Below, one piece after another: positions 15,809-49,619 of a stretch of DNA of 64,000 nucleotides; position 1 is the first letter of the stretch, and each line of letters starts with the position of its first letter. The translations under genes and the position numbers were made by a program. The stretch lies in the NCBI RefSeq assembly GCF_058153355.1, contig NZ_CM177019.1. The stretch is one strand, 5' to 3'. Below the pieces are notes generated by a model. That model did not search any database, was not told the DNA's origin, and saw only the letters and a list, made by a program, of their open reading frames with translations.

Positions 15809-17341
15809 ATGGCGACGATCGATTCTATGAATAAGGACACCACACGTTTGAGCGATGGACCCGACTGGACGTTTGACCTGCTGGATGTTTATCTGGCAGA
15901 GATAGACCGGGTAGCGAAACTCTATCGGCTGGATACCTACCCGCACCAGATTGAAGTGATCACCTCAGAACAGATGATGGATGCCTACTCCAGCGTCGGC
16001 ATGCCAATTAACTATCCACACTGGTCATTCGGTAAAAAGTTTATCGAGACTGAACGGCTGTATAAGCACGGTCAGCAAGGACTGGCCTATGAAATCGTCA
16101 TTAACTCTAACCCGTGTATCGCTTACCTGATGGAAGAGAACACTATCACCATGCAGGCACTTGTGATGGCCCACGCCTGCTATGGGCATAACTCTTTCTT
16201 CAAAAACAATTACTTATTCCGTAGCTGGACCGACGCCAGTTCGATTGTCGATTATCTGATTTTTGCCCGTAAATATATTACCGAGTGCGAAGAACGTTAT
16301 GGCGTAGATGAAGTAGAGCGGCTTCTTGACTCCTGTCATGCGCTGATGAACTACGGTGTGGATCGGTACAAACGCCCGCAAAAAATCTCGCTGCAAGAAG
16401 AAAAAGCCCGGCAGAAAAGTCGCGAAGAGTATCTGCAAAGTCAGGTCAATATGCTCTGGCGTACCCTGCCGAAGCGCGAGGAAGAGAAAACGGTTGCTGA
16501 AGCGCGCCGCTATCCGCCCGAGCCACAAGAAAACCTGCTCTATTTTATGGAGAAAAATGCACCCCTGCTGGAATCATGGCAGCGTGAAATTCTGCGTATT
16601 GTGCGTAAGGTGAGCCAGTATTTTTATCCGCAAAAACAGACTCAGGTAATGAACGAAGGCTGGGCGACCTTCTGGCACTACACCATCCTTAACCATCTGT
16701 ATGATGAAGGGAAAGTGACGGAACGTTTTATGCTGGAGTTTTTGCACAGCCACACCAATGTGGTTTTCCAGCCGCCCTATAACAGCCCGTGGTACAGCGG
16801 AATAAACCCGTATGCGCTTGGTTTCGCCATGTTCCAGGATATTAAACGGATTTGTCAGTCGCCAACGGAAGAAGACAAATACTGGTTCCCGGATATCGCC
16901 GGTTCTGACTGGCTGGACACATTACATTTTGCGATGCGTGATTTCAAAGATGAGAGCTTTATCAGTCAGTTCCTGTCACCGAAAGTGATGCGTGATTTCC
17001 GCTTCTTCACCGTGCTGGACGACGATCGGCATAATTATCTGGAGATTTCCGCTATTCATAATGAAGAAGGTTATCGGGAGATCCGTAACCGGTTATCGTC
17101 GCAATATAATTTAAGTAATCTGGAGCCGAATATTCAGATCTGGAACGTGGATTTGCGCGGCGACCGTTCGCTGACGCTGCGTTACATTCCACATAATCGC
17201 GCACCGCTGGATCGGGGGCGCAAAGAAGTGCTGAAGCATGTGCATCGCCTGTGGGGATTTGATGTGATGCTGGAACAGCAAAACGAAGACGGCAGCGTCG
17301 AGTTGCTGGAACGTTGCCCGCCGAGAATGGGAAATCTGTAA
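15809..17341 (+). CDS. ycgB: SpoVR-family protein YcgB
   Basis: 510-aa ORF, conserved position between dadA and fadR. Confidence 0.88.
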   Translation: MATIDSMNKDTTRLSDGPDWTFDLLDVYLAEIDRVAKLYRLDTYPHQIEVITSEQMMDAYSSVGMPINYPHWSFGKKFIETERLYKHGQQGLAYEIVINSNPCIAYLMEENTITMQALVMAHACYGHNSFFKNNYLFRSWTDASSIVDYLIFARKYITECEERYGVDEVERLLDSCHALMNYGVDRYKRPQKISLQEEKARQKSREEYLQSQVNMLWRTLPKREEEKTVAEARRYPPEPQENLLYFMEKNAPLLESWQREILRIVRKVSQYFYPQKQTQVMNEGWATFWHYTILNHLYDEGKVTERFMLEFLHSHTNVVFQPPYNSPWYSGINPYALGFAMFQDIKRICQSPTEEDKYWFPDIAGSDWLDTLHFAMRDFKDESFISQFLSPKVMRDFRFFTVLDDDRHNYLEISAIHNEEGYREIRNRLSSQYNLSNLEPNIQIWNVDLRGDRSLTLRYIPHNRAPLDRGRKEVLKHVHRLWGFDVMLEQQNEDGSVELLERCPPRMGNL

Positions 17342-17350
17342 AAACAACAA

Positions 17351-17380
17351 AAAACCCCTCGTTTGAGGGGTTTGCTTTTT
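17351..17380. terminator. Bidirectional intrinsic terminator between ycgB and fadR
   Basis: Hairpin cccctcgtttgagggg flanked by A-run upstream and T-run downstream. Confidence 0.6.
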
Positions 17381-17392
17381 AAACGGAAGGGA

Positions 17393-18112
17393 TTATCGCC
17401 CCTGAATGGCTAAATCACCCGGCAGATTTTTCTGCATCCGGTGCCAAATCTCGCCGCTCTCATGCCCATAGCGACGCACTGTTTCGTATACCTGATCGTG
17501 TGCGCCTTCACTGCACAACGCCGACAGTTTGTGGTAGAAGCCCAGCGCCAGACTGCGCGCTTCCGGATTGGCGAAATAGTGACGACCAATGCGCGTATAC
17601 AGCCCTTTCATCCCGTTAAGGATCAGACCGTAAATCGGGTTGCCGGAAGCAAACGCCAGACCGCGGAATATGTTGTAATCCAGCTCGGCAAAGGCATCGG
17701 CGTGATCGGCCACTTCATTAGCGGTAGCCAGCACTTCCTGCGCTTTATCGGGATGTTGACGAAACGCGGTGCGAATAAAAATCGTTGAAATATTGGTACG
17801 CACCGACAGCAAATTATCAATAAGCTGCGGCACACTTTCGTGATCCAGTCGCGCCAGTGTTTCAAGGATATTTAAACCGGAGGTTTCCCAGAAATTATTC
17901 ACCTTCGTCGGCTTGCCATGTTGAATGGTCAACCAGCCATCTCGTGCCAGGCGCTGTAACACTTCACGTAACGTAGTACGCGTTACGCCAATTAATTCTG
18001 AAAGTTCACGTTCTGCGGGCAAAATAGTCCCGGGAGGGAAGCGGTTATTCCAGATACTTTCAATAATGTACTCTTCCGCGAAACCCGCCGGGCTTTGCGC
18101 CTTAATGACCAT
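17393..18112 (-). CDS. fadR: Fatty acid metabolism regulator FadR (GntR family)
   Basis: 239-aa product [21 protein letters not shown]...; track ORF carries an 8-codon upstream extension. Confidence 0.93.
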
Positions 18113-18333
18113 AGTGAGATTTCCATAACACAGCAAAACAAAGTTGGACTCATCATACCAGAGGGCTAACTACGCTGATAGCAGACAAAAAGAAGAAAAA
18201 AGGGATCAAGGCTTCATTTTCCGCATCTCTTTACCCTTGACTATCAAGACTTGCCTCACTCCTGCCTGACCGTTAAGCTTTGCGTTTAAACATAAAAACA
18301 TCATTGATTATTTGTAAGGTAAGGGAAACCATC

Positions 18334-19875
18334 ATGGAGATCTCCTGGGGCCGCGCGCTATGGCGCAATTTTTTGGGCCAGTCCCCCGACTGGTACAAAC
18401 TCGCCCTCATCATTTTCTTAATCGTAAATCCGTTAATTTTCCTCATCAGCCCTTTCGTCGCTGGCTGGTTGCTGGTAGCGGAATTTATTTTCACTCTGGC
18501 GATGGCCCTGAAATGCTACCCGCTACTTCCCGGTGGCCTGTTGGCTATCGAAGCGGTATTCATCGGCATGACCAGCGCGGAACACGTCCGTGAAGAGGTG
18601 GCGGCAAATCTTGAAGTCTTGCTGTTACTGATGTTTATGGTGGCGGGTATCTATTTTATGAAACAGCTGTTGCTGTTCATATTTACCCGTTTGCTGTTAA
18701 GCATTCGCTCCAAAATGCTGCTGTCGCTCTCTTTTTGCGTGGCAGCGGCGTTCCTCTCCGCGTTCCTCGATGCCTTAACCGTCGTGGCGGTGGTGATCAG
18801 CGTTGCCGTCGGTTTTTATGGTATTTATCACCGCGTAGCCTCTTCCCGTACTGAAGATACCGACCTGCAAGACGATAGTCATATCGACAAGCATTACAAA
18901 GTGGTTCTGGAACAGTTCCGTGGCTTTCTGCGCAGCCTGATGATGCATGCAGGTGTCGGCACCGCATTAGGCGGCGTGATGACCATGGTGGGCGAACCAC
19001 AGAACTTGATCATCGCTAAAGCGGCTGGCTGGCATTTTGGCGATTTCTTCCTGCGCATGTCGCCGGTGACCGTCCCGGTTCTGATTTGTGGCCTGTTAAC
19101 CTGCCTGCTGGTGGAGAAGCTACGTTGGTTTGGCTACGGCGAAACGCTGCCGGAGAAAGTCCGCGAAGTGCTGCAACAGTTTGACGATCAAAGTCGCCAC
19201 CAGCGTACCCGTCAGGATAAAATTCGTCTGATTGTCCAGGCGATTATCGGCGTCTGGCTGGTCACCGCGCTGGCGTTGCATTTGGCGGAGGTTGGCCTGA
19301 TTGGTTTGTCGGTCATTATTCTGGCGACATCATTGACTGGTGTCACTGATGAACATGCTATCGGTAAAGCCTTCACCGAATCTCTGCCATTCACCGCACT
19401 GTTGACGGTGTTTTTCTCGGTAGTCGCGGTGATTATCGACCAACAACTGTTTTCGCCGATTATTCAGTTTGTGTTGCAGGCATCGGAACATGCTCAGCTG
19501 TCGCTGTTCTATATTTTCAACGGTCTGCTGTCATCCATTTCGGATAACGTCTTCGTGGGGACGATTTATATCAACGAAGCGAAAGCGGCAATGGAAAGTG
19601 GCGCTATCACGTTGAAGCAATACGAGCTGCTGGCGGTCGCCATTAATACCGGTACCAATCTGCCCTCCGTCGCTACGCCGAACGGTCAGGCTGCGTTCCT
19701 GTTCCTGCTGACCTCTGCACTCGCGCCATTGATTCGCCTCTCTTATGGGCGCATGGTGTGGATGGCCCTGCCTTACACCCTCGTCCTGACACTCGTCGGC
19801 TTGCTCTGCGTCGAGTTTACGCTTGCCCCTGTAACCGAATGGTTTATGCAAATGGGCTGGATAGCAACGCTTTGA
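18334..19875 (+). CDS. nhaB: Na+/H+ antiporter NhaB
   Basis: 513-aa product starting [23 protein letters not shown]...; track ORF starts 18 codons upstream. Confidence 0.92.
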
Positions 19876-41996: not shown

Positions 41997-42075
41997 CCAC
42001 AAATACAACGGGCGTGTTATATGCCCGTTCAATACTTAATAGGTATAGCGTTAACATATTCTTGATAGCATGTAC
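41997..42075. repeat. Diverged copy of the icd 3' end and terminator region (left att-like repeat)
   Basis: About 75 bp (acaaatacaacgggcgtgttatatgcccgtt...catattcttgat) aligns at roughly 80% identity, in direct orientation, with 48315..48386 (icd terminator hairpin and last codons). Confidence 0.7.
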
Positions 42076-42644: not shown

Positions 42645-42899
42645 ATGCAAAGTCAAGGAATGTACTTTGAAATGAACCTATACGCATATTTGAATAAATA
42701 TGATAGTCGGCTTTCAGAAGAAAAACTTGCAATTGATAAGGCAGTTAGAGATTTATATCTTTGCAACGAACACGTGGATAACAAGAGCATTATACTGAAA
42801 TTGCTCTCATTTTTATCATCTGCTGATGACATTGTTGAAAAAGATATTATCAGGAATGCTTTGGAAGTGGTGCTTCTTTTTACATTAGACGATATTTAA
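42645..42899 (+). CDS. AriR/YmgB-family paralog
   Basis: 84-aa product ...DNKSIILKLLSFLSSADDIVEKDIIRNALEVVLLFTLDDI parallels the AriR C-terminus [39 protein letters not shown]. Confidence 0.65.
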   Translation: MQSQGMYFEMNLYAYLNKYDSRLSEEKLAIDKAVRDLYLCNEHVDNKSIILKLLSFLSSADDIVEKDIIRNALEVVLLFTLDDI

Positions 42900-43147: not shown

Positions 43148-43471
43148 ATGAAGTGTATAGTAATTGATACTGTAATACAACCTTCGTGTGGTATATATTT
43201 TTCAGTCATATGGAGCGATATAAAAATGATCATTTGGTATCGTTCAAATATCTTTCTCCCACCTGGCAGCATATTTACAGTTATTAAGTCAGGTATTATA
43301 CTCGAGGATAAAGAATATCCGATCAGTATTTTTAACGTGGCGCTATTCAACAAAAATTTATGGAATTTAATCAAAAATAGTCAAGAGTGTCCTACAGAAT
43401 CAAACAAAATTACGAATAAATGCCTGCATAAGCATTGCATTATGCAAATATGTCCACATGGTCTCAAGTAA
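43148..43471 (+). CDS. iraM: Anti-adaptor protein IraM (RpoS stabiliser)
   Basis: 107-aa product [22 protein letters not shown]...[16 protein letters not shown]. Confidence 0.85.
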
Positions 43472-43522
43472 TGGGGGTTATTTAACCTTCCCTATATGCT
43501 ATAGATAAATCTACCAAAAACT

Positions 43523-43540
43523 GCCCCTTCGTAGAGGGGC
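43523..43540 (+). terminator. Terminator-like hairpin downstream of iraM
   Basis: Perfect hairpin gccccttc-gt-agaggggc followed by a T-rich stretch; the palindrome could act on either strand. Confidence 0.45.
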
Positions 43541-44067
43541 TCTATGATTTTGTTTTATTTGAAGGCATGGTGCTGAATGTACTCGTTGAATCCAGATTCA
43601 ACACCTGAAGCTACACTTAACCCATAATACTTGTTTCTGGTTCCTCTACCGAGTGGTCAAACAATGATATGTATGTGACGTCAGAGTTTATTTTTTTAGT
43701 GTTTAATGCTATTAATTTAACGTAGTTACCTATCTTTTTTCTACCTTCTGAACTAACCTTAGGTTTCAACGTATCCGGCAGGAGGGGCTATCCCCAATCT
43801 TAAATTTTGCTGCCCGATTTGCTCAAGCCAAAGTTTTAATTTTACAACCTATAAACCTGAGTTAAATCAACCTCATGGTGCTGTCTGTTCCCGCTGTGGA
43901 ACAAGACTCACTGCAACATCTTGCATTCCTAAACTTCGCAGAAGGCGATGGGCAAAAACTGTACTGTAATGTTATTTCGATGTCTCTTATGGTAAATAGG
44001 AGGCGTCGAGGCTAAGTGAGTAGCCTGCTTGCTTCTCAAGCCTGGATACTATCAGCATTCACGTCAG

Positions 44068-44107
44068 ATGAAATGATGATATTTCGCGTAAGAAAGAGGC
44101 ATTTTTT
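44068..44107. repeat. 40-bp repeat, copy 2 (between iraM and the trkG-like gene)
   Basis: gatgaaatgatgatatttcgcgtaagaaagaggcattttt; 38/40 identical to copy 1. Confidence 0.7.
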
Positions 44108-44205
44108 TATCAACTTCACATCGGAGATGGTAATAATCCTATGGGTCCAGTCCATATGAGGGGGTCAACATACTATAAAATTCACAATCATAAATTAACT
44201 ATATA

Positions 44206-45663
44206 TCAAGAACGCCAAAAAAATCCTGAAAATAGTATAATAACAGGGTAAATTTCAAGTCGACCAAGAATCATAGCAATACACATGAGATATTTTGCAA
44301 TATCATTAAGAACACCGAATGAGGATGCGGTAGCCCCAAAACCCAGCCCCATATTATTAATGCATGCAGCGACTGTCGCAAATGATGTAAGGAAATCATA
44401 TCCCATACCGTTTAGCACCAGTATAAAAAACACTGTAAAGAAAGTATAAAGAAAAAAGAAACTCCATACAGACCTCATTACGCGGTCTGTAACAATCTTC
44501 CCTCCTACATTTACACTAAGCAATGCTCTGGGATGAGAAAGCTGATTTATTTCGTGTTTACTTTGTTTAAAAAGTATAAGAAATCTAAGTGATTTAATTC
44601 CGCCGCACGTTGAGCCTATACATCCCCCAAAAAAACTTGACAGCAGCAAAAAAACTATCGTATGTGTGGGCCAGTTTGAATAATCCTGCGTAGCTAAACC
44701 ATTATCAGTGAGCATGGAGCTAGCAAGAAAAAACGAATGAACAACACTTCCAGTTAAGTCATACATACCTATATGCCAGACCTGGAAAGAGGTAACAATA
44801 ATAACACCTGAAGCTATTAACAAAAAGAAACGAAGTTCAACATCTGTGAGTAAGGGTTTTATTGTTTTCCTGCTTATAACAACATACCAAAGAGTGAAGT
44901 TGAAAGCCGATAACAGAGAAAAAGAGCCCGCCACCAGTTCAATCAAATAATTATTGAAATAGCCGATACTCTCACTATGAGTTGAAAAACCGCCAAGAGA
45001 AACTGTAGAAAGTCCATGACAAATAGCATCAAACAAAGGCATTCCTGCAAGTCGATAACAAACAATACAAGCAATGCCTAATAAAGAATAAGTTATCCAA
45101 AGTGTCCGCGACGTATCAGCCAAGCGTGGAGTCAGTTTGTCATCCTTAAATGGCCCTGGCATTTCTGACTGATAAAGTTTTGCACCACCAATACCCAATA
45201 ATGGCAACACAGCAACTGCCAGAACAATAACCCCTAAACCGCCGATAAAATTTAATTGTGACCGGTAGAACAAATATGCCCGAGATAATGAACTGACATC
45301 ATCAATTACTGTTGCTCCTGTTGTTGTTATTCCGGAAACCCCTTCAAACAGCGCGTCAGCAAACGTTAAATTAAGCTCTGAATCAATCCATAATGGAAAT
45401 GCGCTAATAATAGAAAATAAAATCCAAAACATTACAATTATAATAAACCCATCACGGGTGCGTAATTGAATGCCAGATTTTTTAGTGGTATACCACGCTC
45501 CGCCACCAATACAAAAAAATATAACAAAAGTAATAAAAAAAACGAACAAGCTTTTTTCTTTATAAAACAATGCTACAACCATTGGTGGTAACATTGAAAG
45601 ACTATAGAGCCAGACCAAGAACCCACACATATGAGTTACAACTCTTACATGAGATGTATTCAT
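44206..45663 (-). CDS. trkG: TrkH/TrkG-family K+ uptake membrane protein (TrkG-like, horizontally acquired copy)
   Basis: 485-aa product from Met 7 (MNTSHVRVVTHMCGFL...); strong similarity to TrkH core (GATVIDD...FYRSQLNFIGGLGVIVLAVAVLPLLGIGGAKLYQSEMPGPFKDDKLTPRLADTSRTLW); AT-rich codon usage. Confidence 0.85.
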   Translation of the reverse strand: MNTSHVRVVTHMCGFLVWLYSLSMLPPMVVALFYKEKSLFVFFITFVIFFCIGGGAWYTTKKSGIQLRTRDGFIIIVMFWILFSIISAFPLWIDSELNLTFADALFEGVSGITTTGATVIDDVSSLSRAYLFYRSQLNFIGGLGVIVLAVAVLPLLGIGGAKLYQSEMPGPFKDDKLTPRLADTSRTLWITYSLLGIACIVCYRLAGMPLFDAICHGLSTVSLGGFSTHSESIGYFNNYLIELVAGSFSLLSAFNFTLWYVVISRKTIKPLLTDVELRFFLLIASGVIIVTSFQVWHIGMYDLTGSVVHSFFLASSMLTDNGLATQDYSNWPTHTIVFLLLSSFFGGCIGSTCGGIKSLRFLILFKQSKHEINQLSHPRALLSVNVGGKIVTDRVMRSVWSFFFLYTFFTVFFILVLNGMGYDFLTSFATVAACINNMGLGFGATASSFGVLNDIAKYLMCIAMILGRLEIYPVIILFSGFFWRS

Positions 45664-46099
45664 ATCCAAATGTTCTTTCAATTATAACCACCTTACTGCA
45701 ATGTCATGATTATACTGTATAAATTTTAACTCTTCTTAGATCTTACTTCACTGGTCCTTATGAAACAATCAGCAAAATGAATCTTATTATAACACTGTTC
45801 GGTTATGTATTGTTGAGCCTTCCCGCTGGGCCTGCATCATTACAAGTCGCTCCCTATGGGGCTTTGTCGAATAAATAATTTTTCGGTAAGTATCCCCTGA
45901 GCAGGTTGTATCTTCAGGCAGTATGAACACTTTCTGGCATACCTACCTTCGTCATTATGTTCAGCGTATGCACCATGACCAAAGCCTCTGCAACCGGCCG
46001 ATCATAATCTAGCAACATCAGAGAACCTCAGAATAACTGTTTTACCCTGTACATTGCCGTTTCCGCTATTGAGCAACGATTGTAATCTTTTGTCCATTT

Positions 46100-46330
46100 T
46101 CACCGGGAATTACCCTCGGTCAATCGCTGATACGCGACTGCACAGTTACGGTCGGCATACTCACCGGACCAGTAACCCGCTCCTTTTTGGGGTGGGATGA
46201 GCGCGCTGATTTTCACACGGCGCAGCTGCTCGTAACAGAGCCGAGAGGCGTAAACTCCGTCTGCTGCTGTCCTGATTTTTTGATGGGTTTGCCGGATTAA
46301 TCCGGCTACACCTCTACATCCGTTACGCTG
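46100..46330 (-). pseudogene. Short transposase-like / mobile-element ORF remnant
   Basis: Minus-strand frame gives an uninterrupted ~74-codon stretch ...RLCYEQLRRVKISALIPPQKGAGYWSGEYADRNCAVAYQRLTEGNSR* with no start context or flanking gene; GC-rich relative to its AT-rich neighbours. Confidence 0.35.
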
Positions 46331-46545
46331 AATGCTGAGGTCGCCCTTGGGAAGAAGGCATTGCTGACTTATACCAATCCGAAATCACCTCCTCGTGCAA
46401 CCAGACAGGGAGGGGCCTCGGTTGATAAGAGCTCTGTTATTGATGTGCCAGTTGGTGATTCTAACTTTTGCTTTGTAACGGGACGAGCCGTGTTGGCAGA
46501 TGATGTGTGGTCTGATCCTTAAACTCAGTAAAAGTACGATTTATT

Positions 46546-46584
46546 CAAAAAAGCCCCTCCACTATGATTTCGATTTAAGGGGCT
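46546..46584 (-). terminator. Intrinsic terminator of the 458-aa gene
   Basis: On the minus strand: hairpin agcccc...ggggct followed by a run of six U, about 30 nt after the stop. Confidence 0.6.
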
Positions 46585-46615
46585 GATGATTATGTAACGC
46601 GAATTTACCGGATCC

Positions 46616-48001
<1,386 letters not shown>

Positions 48002-48313
48002 TCAGGGGGGTTGATATTCCGGATCATGCCGTGTTTGCCCACGGCTCCCCCTGGAGAGCTGCAGACCTGTTTATTTAACTCGCACAGCGCCGGGGCCTGT
48101 CAGCAAACAGGGAGCATAACCGTCGTGCCATTAAACGCCAGACGGGAGATCATTATTATTTTATTAATACAGATTCGTTGCATTCCGGTCTTTACCGCAG
48201 TTTAAAAGAAAAGAGAATAGGGACTTAGGCAGTAGAGCAGTCATTGGACAGACCACACTACCCCAAACTAGCAGGGGAGTTTTGATAAAATTTTGATAAC
48301 CGTTAGCATGCTA

Positions 48314-48346
48314 ACAAAAAACAACGGGCGTGTTATACGCCCGTTT
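48314..48346 (-). terminator. Intrinsic terminator of icd
   Basis: Minus-strand hairpin aacgggcgtataacacgcccgtt followed by a U-run, directly after the icd stop. Confidence 0.75.
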
Positions 48347-48368
48347 CAATATTTAACACATGTAGTGA

Positions 48369-49619
48369 TTACATATTCTTGATGATCGCGTCACCAAACT
48401 CTGAACATTTCAGCAGTTTAGCGCCTTCCATCAGACGTTCGAAGTCATAGGTTACAGTCTTCGCGTTGATTGCGCCTTCCATACCTTTAACAATCAGGTC
48501 TGCGGCTTCAGTCCAGCCCATATGGCGCAGCATCATCTCAGCGGAGAGGATGATAGAGCCTGGGTTAACTTTGTCCTGACCAGCATACTTCGGCGCAGTA
48601 CCGTGGGTGGCTTCAAACAGCGCGCATTCGTCACCGATGTTTGCGCCTGGGGCGATACCGATACCGCCAACCTGCGCTGCCAGAGCATCAGAAATGTAGT
48701 CACCGTTGAGGTTCATACAGGCGATAACGTCGTATTCAGCCGGACGCAGCAGGATCTGTTGCAGGAATGCGTCAGCAATCACGTCTTTAATGACGATCTC
48801 TTTGCCGGTGTTCGGGTTTTTGACTTTCAGCCACGGCCCGCCGTCGATCAGTTCACCGCCAAACTCTTCACGCGCCAGCTGGTAACCCCAGTCTTTAAAC
48901 GCGCCTTCGGTGAACTTCATGATGTTGCCTTTGTGCACCAGGGTCACAGAGTCACGGTCGTTAGCAATTGCGTATTCGATCGCGGCACGAACCAGACGTT
49001 TGGTGCCTTCTTCCGAACACGGCTTGATACCGATACCGCAATGTTCCGGGAAGCGAATTTTCTTCACGCCCATCTCTTCACGCAGGAATTTAATCACTTT
49101 CTCAGCGTCGGCAGAGTCAGCTTTCCATTCGATACCCGCATAAATATCTTCCGAGTTTTCACGGAAGATAACCATATCGGTCAGTTCAGGATGTTTAACC
49201 GGGCTTGGGGTGCCCTGATAGTAACGTACCGGACGCAGGCAGATGTAGAGATCCAGTTCCTGGCGCAGAGCTACGTTGAGAGAACGAATACCGCCGCCAA
49301 CCGGAGTGGTCAGAGGGCCTTTAATGGCAACGCGATACTCACGAATCAGATCAAGGGTTTCAGCAGGCAGCCAGACATCCTGACCATAAACCTGTGTGGA
49401 TTTTTCACCGGTGTAAATTTCCATCCAGGAGATTTTACGCTCGCCTTTATAGGCTTTCTCGACCGCAGCGTCGACCACTTTCAGCATGGCTGGGGTTACA
49501 TCTACACCGATTCCATCACCTTCAATGTAAGGGATAATCGGATTTTCAGGAACGTTGAGTTTGCCGTTTTGCAGGGTGATCTTCTTGCCTTGTGCCGGAA
49601 CAACTACTTTACTTTCCAT
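48369..49619 (-). CDS. icd: NADP-dependent isocitrate dehydrogenase
   Basis: 416-aa product [38 protein letters not shown]...; C-terminus ...[12 protein letters not shown]. Confidence 0.96.

What the first reader, a model, noticed from the sequence alone, without database searches (positions are those of the whole stretch)
44068..44107. 40-bp direct repeat, copy 2, in the iraM to trkG-like intergenic region
Partner of the repeat at 33988-34027. Here the conserved minus-strand mini-ORF is truncated to 12 codons (MPLSYAKYHHFI), and the copy lies inside the putative icd-site element remnant. One copy is in core-like context and one in accessory context, which is what an element-borne mimic of a host regulatory site, or a recombination scar, would look like.
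Basis: seen in the sequence. Interest (0 to 1): 0.4.

Follow-up and report, generated by a model that had tools for sequence, protein, structure and literature searches.

The report
Orphan scrap of an adhesin-gene leader
The 40-base repeat is real, but copy 2 is an isolated, truncated scrap of the upstream leader of an E. coli adhesin (autotransporter) gene, stranded in a decayed prophage island next to trkG, and is most likely a recombination relic, not a regulatory site.

Summary
The repeat is confirmed. Window 33987-34026 and 44067-44106 match at 38 of 40 bases; shuffled sequence gave no such match.

Copy 1 is not a free-standing site. It lies inside a ~5 kb segment (29153-34219) that is 94% identical to the autotransporter gene ypjA/ehaD plus its ~450-bp leader. 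The same leader lies upstream of ypjA, and at ymgJ/ycgI in K-12; 5287 of 5426 complete E. coli genomes have it in at least one place. The motif is the first 12 codons, plus the A-run before the start codon, of a poorly conserved 39-codon ORF.

Copy 2 shares only 40-43 bp with that leader, and its flanks are unrelated. It sits in a low-GC, 4.8-kb island (43509-48317) between iraM and icd, found in only 18 of 5426 genomes. The island is a patchwork: an Rz tail, a Rac-like trkG cassette and a 105-bp lambdoid ren-downstream piece, in an order that does not follow the lambdoid map.

I found no promoter, terminator, RNA-family or RNA-structure signal, and no sign of extra conservation.

Verdict: an orphan fragment left by illegitimate recombination in a decaying prophage remnant. 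It is ordinary and of low interest.

The parts
44067..44109 (-). Copy 2. An orphan 40-43 bp patch of the ypjA-family leader, holding the A-run, the ATG and 12 codons (MPLSYAKYHHFI) before a stop.
33987..34026 (-). Copy 1. The same 40 bp in its native setting, inside the leader of the ypjA-like autotransporter gene.
33714..34022 (-). Leader ORF that starts at the motif's ATG. It is 39 codons at the ypjA locus (WP_001120794.1). In the window the stop is CGA, so it reads on for 102 codons. PGAP labels it 'hypothetical protein' or an 'ATPase' pseudogene.
29153..34219 (-). Paralogous segment holding the ypjA/ehaD-like autotransporter ORF (29162-33967) plus its leader. It is ~94% identical to the ypjA locus over most of the gene; identity falls to ~78% across the gene's 5' end and the leader.
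43509..48317 (.). Island between the iraM terminator and the icd terminator, found in only 18 of 5426 complete E. coli genomes. The iraM-to-trkG half is low in GC.
43913..44017 (.). A 105-bp fragment, 79% identical to the region just downstream of ren in lambdoid (including Stx) prophages.
44156..45854 (-). trkG cassette (trkG ORF 44206-45681), 89% identical to the Rac prophage trkG of K-12. The match includes 50 bp after the stop and the tail of Rz/Rz1 upstream.
42001..42066 (.). Duplicate of the icd terminator and 3' flank. Its partner is at 48317-48383, and together they bracket the ariR-like gene, iraM and the island.

Best explanation
Copy 2 is a non-functional orphan fragment of 40-43 bp. 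It comes from the 5' leader of a ypjA/ehaD-family autotransporter gene and covers the A-run, the ATG and the first 12 codons of the leader's small ORF.

It is embedded in the junk DNA of a decayed Rac-like lambdoid prophage remnant. That remnant carries the trkG moron and sits between iraM and icd in a rare E. coli lineage.

Shown:
- The source sequence is a ~450-bp leader present in nearly all E. coli.
- Copy 2 shares only the short patch with it.
- The surrounding interval is a patchwork of short phage-derived pieces whose order does not follow the phage map.
- The small ORF is cut off by a stop codon.

Inferred: the patch got there by illegitimate recombination. It is either what remains of a longer captured piece after deletions on both sides, or filler DNA at a junction, acquired while the prophage was being rearranged. 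It has since drifted (2-3 private substitutions, ~5-7% divergence). It does nothing today except provide very short homology, with perfect runs of only 17-18 bp, which is below the ~23-27 bp I recall as the minimum for efficient RecA recombination.
For: - Real repeat: 38/40 identity, with no match in 100 shuffles.
- Native setting of copy 1: it is part of a contiguous 5-kb paralogous block with ypjA and its leader.
- Distribution of the leader: it sits upstream of ypjA and at ymgJ/ycgI in K-12. It is present in 5287 of 5426 genomes, at 1-3 places per genome.
- Copy 2 is isolated: its flanks show no homology to the leader or to any fetched locus, even with 7-base seeds.
- No other isolated patch found: all 10 viral-contig hits and both hits in the species-representative genomes carry leader homology well beyond the patch (190-443 bp), not a 40-43 bp patch.
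- Rare island: copy 2 and the whole island occur in the same number of genomes, 18 of 5426.
- Patchwork neighbours: a ren-downstream piece, a trkG cassette with an Rz tail, and unmatched spacers, in an order that is not colinear with a lambdoid map. GC is 32-39%.
- ORF truncated to 12 codons.
- No promoter or terminator consensus on the motif, no Rfam family, and folding z-scores of +1.07 and +0.16.
- The leader ORF matches no Pfam family and only 7 Escherichia ORFs, with shifted frames.
Against: - A clean 40-bp patch with unrelated DNA on both sides needs either two independent deletions or a filler-type insertion. No intermediate form, such as a longer piece of leader next to trkG, was found.
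- No source copy carrying copy 2's two private substitutions turned up. An exact 25-mer scan of JGI metagenome contigs found none, and in the E. coli genome search the best leader match shown was 39 of 41.
- Among 7 island copies the motif has no variable site, against 1.1 expected. This neither supports nor excludes constraint.
- Function was not tested experimentally.
Confidence: 0.82

Rival explanations
1. Element-borne mimic or decoy. The start of the leader ORF would be the binding site of a protein or sRNA that controls the ypjA-family autotransporters. The copy downstream of trkG, possibly carried on a trkG read-through transcript, would titrate or recruit the same factor.
For: The motif is in the same orientation as trkG, ~100 nt downstream of its stop. 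No terminator-like site is predicted on that strand before 43540, so it could be co-transcribed. No variable site fell in the motif among 7 island copies.
Against: - No regulator or sRNA is known for this leader.
- No Rfam hit and no structure signal.
- Within the leader family the motif is no better conserved than its flanks.
- Zero variable sites against 1.1 expected is not significant.
- The patch occurs in only 18 of 5426 genomes and never on any other element.
Confidence: 0.04
2. Attachment-site-like or recombination-site repeat. The two 40-bp direct repeats would be attL/attR-type cores, or targets of a site-specific recombinase, flanking a 10-kb mobile or invertible segment.
For: The repeats are direct and 10,080 bp apart. 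At the ypjA locus a Pin-type recombinase pseudogene lies about 220 bp upstream of the same leader ORF.
Against: - The 10 kb between the copies holds ymgG to iraM, which K-12 carries in the same order without copy 2. There is no integrase in it.
- The island boundaries (43509 and 48317) do not coincide with the motif.
- Copy 1 is part of a 5-kb contiguous paralogy, not a discrete core.
- By eye, the motif has no dyad symmetry and no resemblance to Pin/Hin-type crossover sites.
Confidence: 0.03
3. Remnant of a formerly complete third autotransporter locus. This is a variant of the best explanation that differs only in origin. A prophage would have captured a ypjA-type gene with its leader, for instance by aberrant excision from the ssrA/ypjA neighbourhood, and nearly all of it was later deleted.
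For: ypjA lies directly next to ssrA, which I know from the literature as a favoured prophage integration site. Its leader abuts a phage-type invertase remnant. IMG/VR proviral predictions often include the ypjA leader.
Against: Nothing else of the leader, ypjA or pinH is detectable around copy 2, even with 7-base seeds. No intermediate genome was found.
Confidence: 0.1

Closest known systems
5' leader of E. coli ypjA/ehaD (AIDA-type autotransporter) and the K-12 ymgJ-ycgI region
   Same: Copy 2 is 93% identical over 43 bp to the leader upstream of ypjA, 93% over 41 bp to the 3' end of K-12 ymgJ, and 95% over 40 bp to copy 1. It begins with the same ATG and the same first 12 codons, with one amino-acid change (E to K).
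   Different: Only 40-43 of the ~450 leader bases are present. No autotransporter follows, and the ORF stops after 12 codons. The context is a prophage remnant, not the minE-side or ssrA-side autotransporter loci.
Rac cryptic prophage trkG moron of E. coli K-12
   Same: The neighbouring cassette (44156-45854) is 89% identical to Rac trkG, including the Rz/Rz1 tail upstream and 50 bp downstream.
   Different: In K-12 Rac no copy of the motif lies near trkG. Here the cassette sits at the iraM-icd junction, not in an intact Rac, and ynaK does not follow it.
e14-type occupancy of the icd 3' end
   Same: The island sits at the same chromosomal hotspot. icd 3'-flank sequences are duplicated around it, as with icdC in K-12.
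   Different: No e14 genes are present (no integrase, pinE or mcrA). The island abuts the icd terminator rather than replacing the icd 3' coding end. The 40-bp motif is unrelated to the icd duplication.

Membership tests
ypjA/ehaD-family autotransporter leader (functional copy) | Contiguous homology across the ~450-bp leader | tested here: not met
   Only 40-43 bp match and the flanks are unrelated. Copy 1 meets this feature.
ypjA/ehaD-family autotransporter leader (functional copy) | An AIDA-type autotransporter gene immediately downstream, on the same strand | tested here: not met
   On the minus strand, downstream of copy 2, lie a ren-flank fragment and the 3' end of iraM.
Small protein gene (39-aa leader ORF, or YmgJ) | An intact ORF kept in frame across strains, belonging to a protein family | tested here: not met
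   Copy 2 stops after 12 codons. Frames and stops vary among strains. There is no Pfam family, and only 7 Escherichia ORFs match.
Integrative-element attachment sites (attL/attR direct repeats) | The repeats bound a mobile segment that carries an integrase and is present or absent precisely at the repeats | tested here: not met
   The intervening 10 kb holds genes that K-12 has without copy 2. The island ends at 43509 and 48317, not at the motif.
IS or MITE terminal repeat | Many dispersed copies, with terminal inverted repeats and target-site duplications | tested here: not met
   There are at most 3 places per genome, and every hit I examined apart from copy 2 carried leader homology beyond the patch. 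No inverted partner was found.
Known regulatory RNA or structured RNA element | A match to a curated RNA family, or folding significantly more stable than shuffles | tested here: not met
   No Rfam match on either copy, even at E<=1. Folding z-scores are +1.07 and +0.16.
Regulator binding-site mimic | A trans-acting factor binds both copies | not testable with these tools
   This needs footprinting, ChIP or pull-down experiments. The literature searches found no factor for this site.
Regulator binding-site mimic | The motif is conserved above its flanks | tested here: inconclusive
   Zero variable sites in the motif against 1.1 expected among 7 island copies. Within the leader family the motif is no better conserved than its flanks.

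The most novel reading that the evidence does not exclude
The start of the small leader ORF of ypjA-family autotransporters is a real cis-regulatory element, recognised by an sRNA or protein or acting as a translational-coupling site. The stranded copy in the trkG 3' region then acts as a decoy that links expression of a prophage-borne K+ transporter to adhesin expression in this lineage.
Probability: 0.03. Interest if true: 0.5.

Novelty: new member of a known kind. Interest (0 to 1): 0.08.

Why it matters
It matters little. The result removes a candidate regulatory mimic and explains it as a sequence relic.

It has minor value for annotation. The motif marks the 5' end of a leader ORF that PGAP inconsistently names 'hypothetical protein', 'ATPase' pseudogene, or the end of ymgJ. 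Neither that ORF nor the C-terminus of YmgJ looks constrained.

It also documents a rare trkG island at the iraM-icd hotspot, in 18 of 5426 genomes, assembled from rearranged lambdoid scraps.

Tried and rejected
- **Copy near trkG in K-12 Rac:** I expected a second K-12 copy there and found none. In the genomes I examined, the second copy is upstream of ypjA.
- **'ATPase' label:** I asked whether the motif is the N-terminus of a real protein family. There is no Pfam hit, and only 7 Escherichia ORFs match among 5.8 billion proteins.
- **Species-representative genomes:** the motif scan gave only 2 hits, neither in a record titled Escherichia. Both carry leader-type flanks, so they are probably E. 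coli contamination.
- **Phage records:** no match for 43880-44200.
- **Plasmid records:** only leader-type hits, on large non-mobilizable records, some of chromosome size.
- **Origin of copy 2's flanks:** exact-match scans of viral contigs and metagenome contigs found nothing.
- **Copy-2-specific variant:** an exact-match scan of metagenome contigs found nothing.
- **Signals on the motif:** promoter and terminator scans, Rfam, and RNA folding were all negative.
- **Literature:** searches on ymgJ, ypjA/ehaD and trkG gave nothing on this sequence. The FlhDC SELEX site listed near ymgJ is a different sequence.
- **Variation among 7 island copies:** too few differences to test for constraint.

Full report
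**Observation**

The window reads GATGAAATGATGATATTCCGCATAAGAAAGAGGCATTTTT at 33987-34026. At 44067-44106 it reads GATGAAATGATGATATTTCGCGTAAGAAAGAGGCATTTTT. The repeat finder reports these as family D4: 38 of 40 identical, 10,080 bp apart. A degenerate 40-mer allowing 3 mismatches finds only these two sites in the window, and none in 100 dinucleotide-preserving shuffles. The minus strand of copy 2 translates as MPLSYAKYHHFI followed by a stop.

**Where the window comes from**

The window is E. coli chromosome. Its order is:
- the min region;
- a long autotransporter ORF (29162-33967, minus strand);
- ymgG, ymgD, ymgF, pdeG, ymgC, ariR, ymgA, ycgZ, bluF, bluR and ycgX;
- an ariR-like paralog (42645-42899; Pfam YmgB);
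- iraM (43148-43471);
- trkG (44206-45681, minus strand);
- a 458-codon ORF (46616-47992, minus strand);
- icd.

**What copy 1 is**

Copy 1 is not a discrete site. Window 29153-34219 is colinear with the ypjA/ehaD autotransporter locus of other E. coli. Identity is about 94% over most of the gene and falls to about 78% across its 5' end and the leader. A 350-column alignment of copy 1, the ypjA-upstream region and the K-12 ymgJ region shows high identity along the whole shared leader. The 40-mer is no better conserved than its flanks.

- In K-12 the motif lies at the 3' end of ymgJ, just upstream of the ycgI autotransporter remnant.
- At the ypjA locus, PGAP annotates a 39-codon ORF (WP_001120794.1). 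It starts at the motif's ATG and ends 64 nt before ypjA.
- In a close relative of the window, the same ORF is called an 'ATPase' pseudogene.

That label has no basis that I could find. The translated leader hits no Pfam family. Among 5.8 billion proteins it matches only 7 Escherichia ORFs. Several of these are frame-shifted relative to one another, and one is fused to the neighbouring invertase fragment. The A/T run before the ATG is 5, 6 or 7 nt long in the three leader types, which also shifts the YmgJ C-terminus. In the window the stop codon of the 39-codon ORF is CGA, so the ORF reads on for 102 codons. Calling this a 'conserved mini-ORF' is therefore too strong.

A 56-bp query around copy 1 is found in 5287 of 5426 complete E. 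coli genomes, at 1 to 3 places per genome. The extra place, in the genomes I examined, is the ypjA leader.

**What copy 2 is**

Only 40-43 bp match the leader: 44067-44106 against copy 1, and 44067-44109 against the ypjA type. The flanks do not align in MAFFT. With 7-base seeds and relaxed scoring they match nothing in the leader, the ypjA locus, or K-12 e14 and Rac.

Searches beyond the window found no other isolated patch:
- All ten IMG/VR hits to the motif, and both hits in the species-representative genomes, carry leader homology well beyond the patch (190-443 bp), not a 40-43 bp patch.
- Phage records have no match to 43880-44200.
- Plasmid records give only leader-type hits, on large non-mobilizable records, some of chromosome size.
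- Copy 2's two private substitutions were not found in an exact-match scan of metagenome contigs.
- Its flanks were not found in viral or metagenome contigs.

**Context of copy 2**

Comparison with K-12 shows that homology to the iraM region ends at 43508 and homology to the icd 3' flank resumes at about 48280-48318. So 43509-48317 is an island. Three separate searches, covering the iraM-trkG junction, the spacer and the distal half, each found near-full-length matches in 18 of 5426 complete genomes. GC is 32-39% from 41.5 to 46 kb, against about 50% in and beyond icd.

The island contains:
- a trkG cassette (44156-45854), 89% identical to the Rac trkG of K-12, including 50 bp after the stop and the tail of Rz/Rz1 upstream;
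- a 105-bp piece (43913-44017), 79% identical to the region just downstream of ren in lambdoid and Stx prophages.

On the minus strand the order is Rz tail, trkG, 48 bp of unknown origin, the motif, 49 bp of unknown origin, then the ren-downstream piece. In a lambdoid phage, ren lies upstream of Rz. The interval is therefore a rearranged patchwork of short scraps. K-12 Rac has no copy of the motif near trkG.

**Tests for function**

- The promoter and terminator consensus scans place nothing on the motif in either copy.
- Rfam gives no hit there, even at E<=1.
- RNA folding of the leader and of the copy-2 region is no more stable than shuffled sequence, with z-scores of +1.07 and +0.16.
- Among 7 copies of the island there are 21 variable columns in the 734-nt intergenic region and none in the 40-mer, where 1.1 would be expected. 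This is uninformative.
- The longest perfect runs shared by the two copies are 17 and 18 bp. That is below the ~23-27 bp I recall as the minimal efficient substrate for RecA/RecBCD recombination in E. coli (my own knowledge).
- The literature holds nothing on this sequence. The FlhDC SELEX site listed near ymgJ is a different sequence.

**Explanation**

The best-supported reading (confidence ~0.8) is that copy 2 is a non-functional orphan fragment of the ypjA-family leader. It was left by illegitimate recombination during the assembly and decay of a Rac-like prophage remnant at the iraM-icd hotspot.

The shown steps are the identity of the source sequence, the isolation of the patch, the patchwork context, the truncation of the ORF and the rarity of the island. 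The inferred step is how the patch arrived. It may be what remains of a longer captured piece, or filler DNA at a junction.

One fact makes capture plausible. At its native locus the ypjA leader lies about 220 bp from a phage-type Pin invertase remnant, and ypjA itself lies next to ssrA. However, no intermediate form was found.

The rival readings have no positive support:
- regulatory decoy, ~0.04;
- att-like or recombinase site, ~0.03. This one is contradicted: the 10 kb between the copies holds genes that K-12 carries without copy 2, and the island boundaries do not coincide with the motif.

**Comparison and novelty**

The closest known things are the ypjA/ehaD leader (the K-12 ymgJ-ycgI region), the Rac trkG moron, and e14-type occupancy of the icd 3' end. 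Copy 2 fails every defining feature of a functional leader copy, a small-protein gene, an att site, an IS or MITE end, or a known RNA element. It is a new instance of a well-known kind of thing: a short ectopic gene fragment in a decaying prophage island. Interest is low.

Noticed in passing
window 42001-42066 and 48317-48383: The icd terminator and 3' flank is duplicated (repeat families D5 and D6, 79-93% identity, ~6.3 kb apart). The duplicates bracket the ariR-like gene, iraM and the trkG island. K-12 shows the equivalent duplicate between ycgX and iraM. This suggests iraM itself arrived with an old element that integrated at icd.
   Followed up: partly
window 29162-33967 (minus strand): A 1601-codon autotransporter ORF next to the min genes, ~94% identical in DNA to ypjA/ehaD. 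K-12 keeps only the ycgI C-terminal remnant at this position. Genomes of this lineage therefore carry two near-identical ypjA-type genes with near-identical leaders.
   Followed up: partly
window 33714-34134 (minus strand); K-12 ymgJ (L002 28265-28450): The annotated small genes in the leader look unconstrained. The A/T run before the leader ORF's ATG is 5, 6 or 7 nt long in different loci, which shifts the YmgJ C-terminus. The stop of the 39-codon ORF is CGA in the window. PGAP names the ORF 'hypothetical protein' in some genomes and an 'ATPase' pseudogene in others.
   Followed up: partly
window 46616-47992 (minus strand): A 458-codon ORF in the island has no Pfam family. Its last ~130 residues give only weak hits to PHROG 11707 and 10109, both of unknown function. 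The N-terminal half looks internally duplicated by eye. It is found only in the same 18 genomes.
   Followed up: partly
window 45787-45930 (minus strand) and 43913-44017: Lambdoid scraps flank trkG: an Rz/Rz1 C-terminal tail upstream of trkG and a ren-downstream fragment beyond copy 2. Their order is not colinear with a lambdoid genome.
   Followed up: yes
window 48157-48355 (plus strand): A sub-threshold Rfam match to STnc150, an Hfq-binding sRNA (39.7 bits against a gathering score of 60, E=1.9e-5), lies just downstream of icd and overlaps the icd terminator.
   Followed up: no
window 43523-43540: A strong bidirectional terminator-like hairpin (GCCCCTTCGTAGAGGGGC) lies just after iraM. It is the first terminator-like site that a trkG read-through transcript would meet.
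   Followed up: no
L001 (NZ_CP043414.1) 16515-18863: In strain EC42405 the island also carries an IS100 (istA/istB) inserted into an IS5-family remnant between trkG and the 458-codon ORF. The window appears to lack the IS100: strain WL297, whose copy of 45855-48320 matches the window end to end at 99.8%, is annotated there with only the IS5-family remnant.
   Followed up: no
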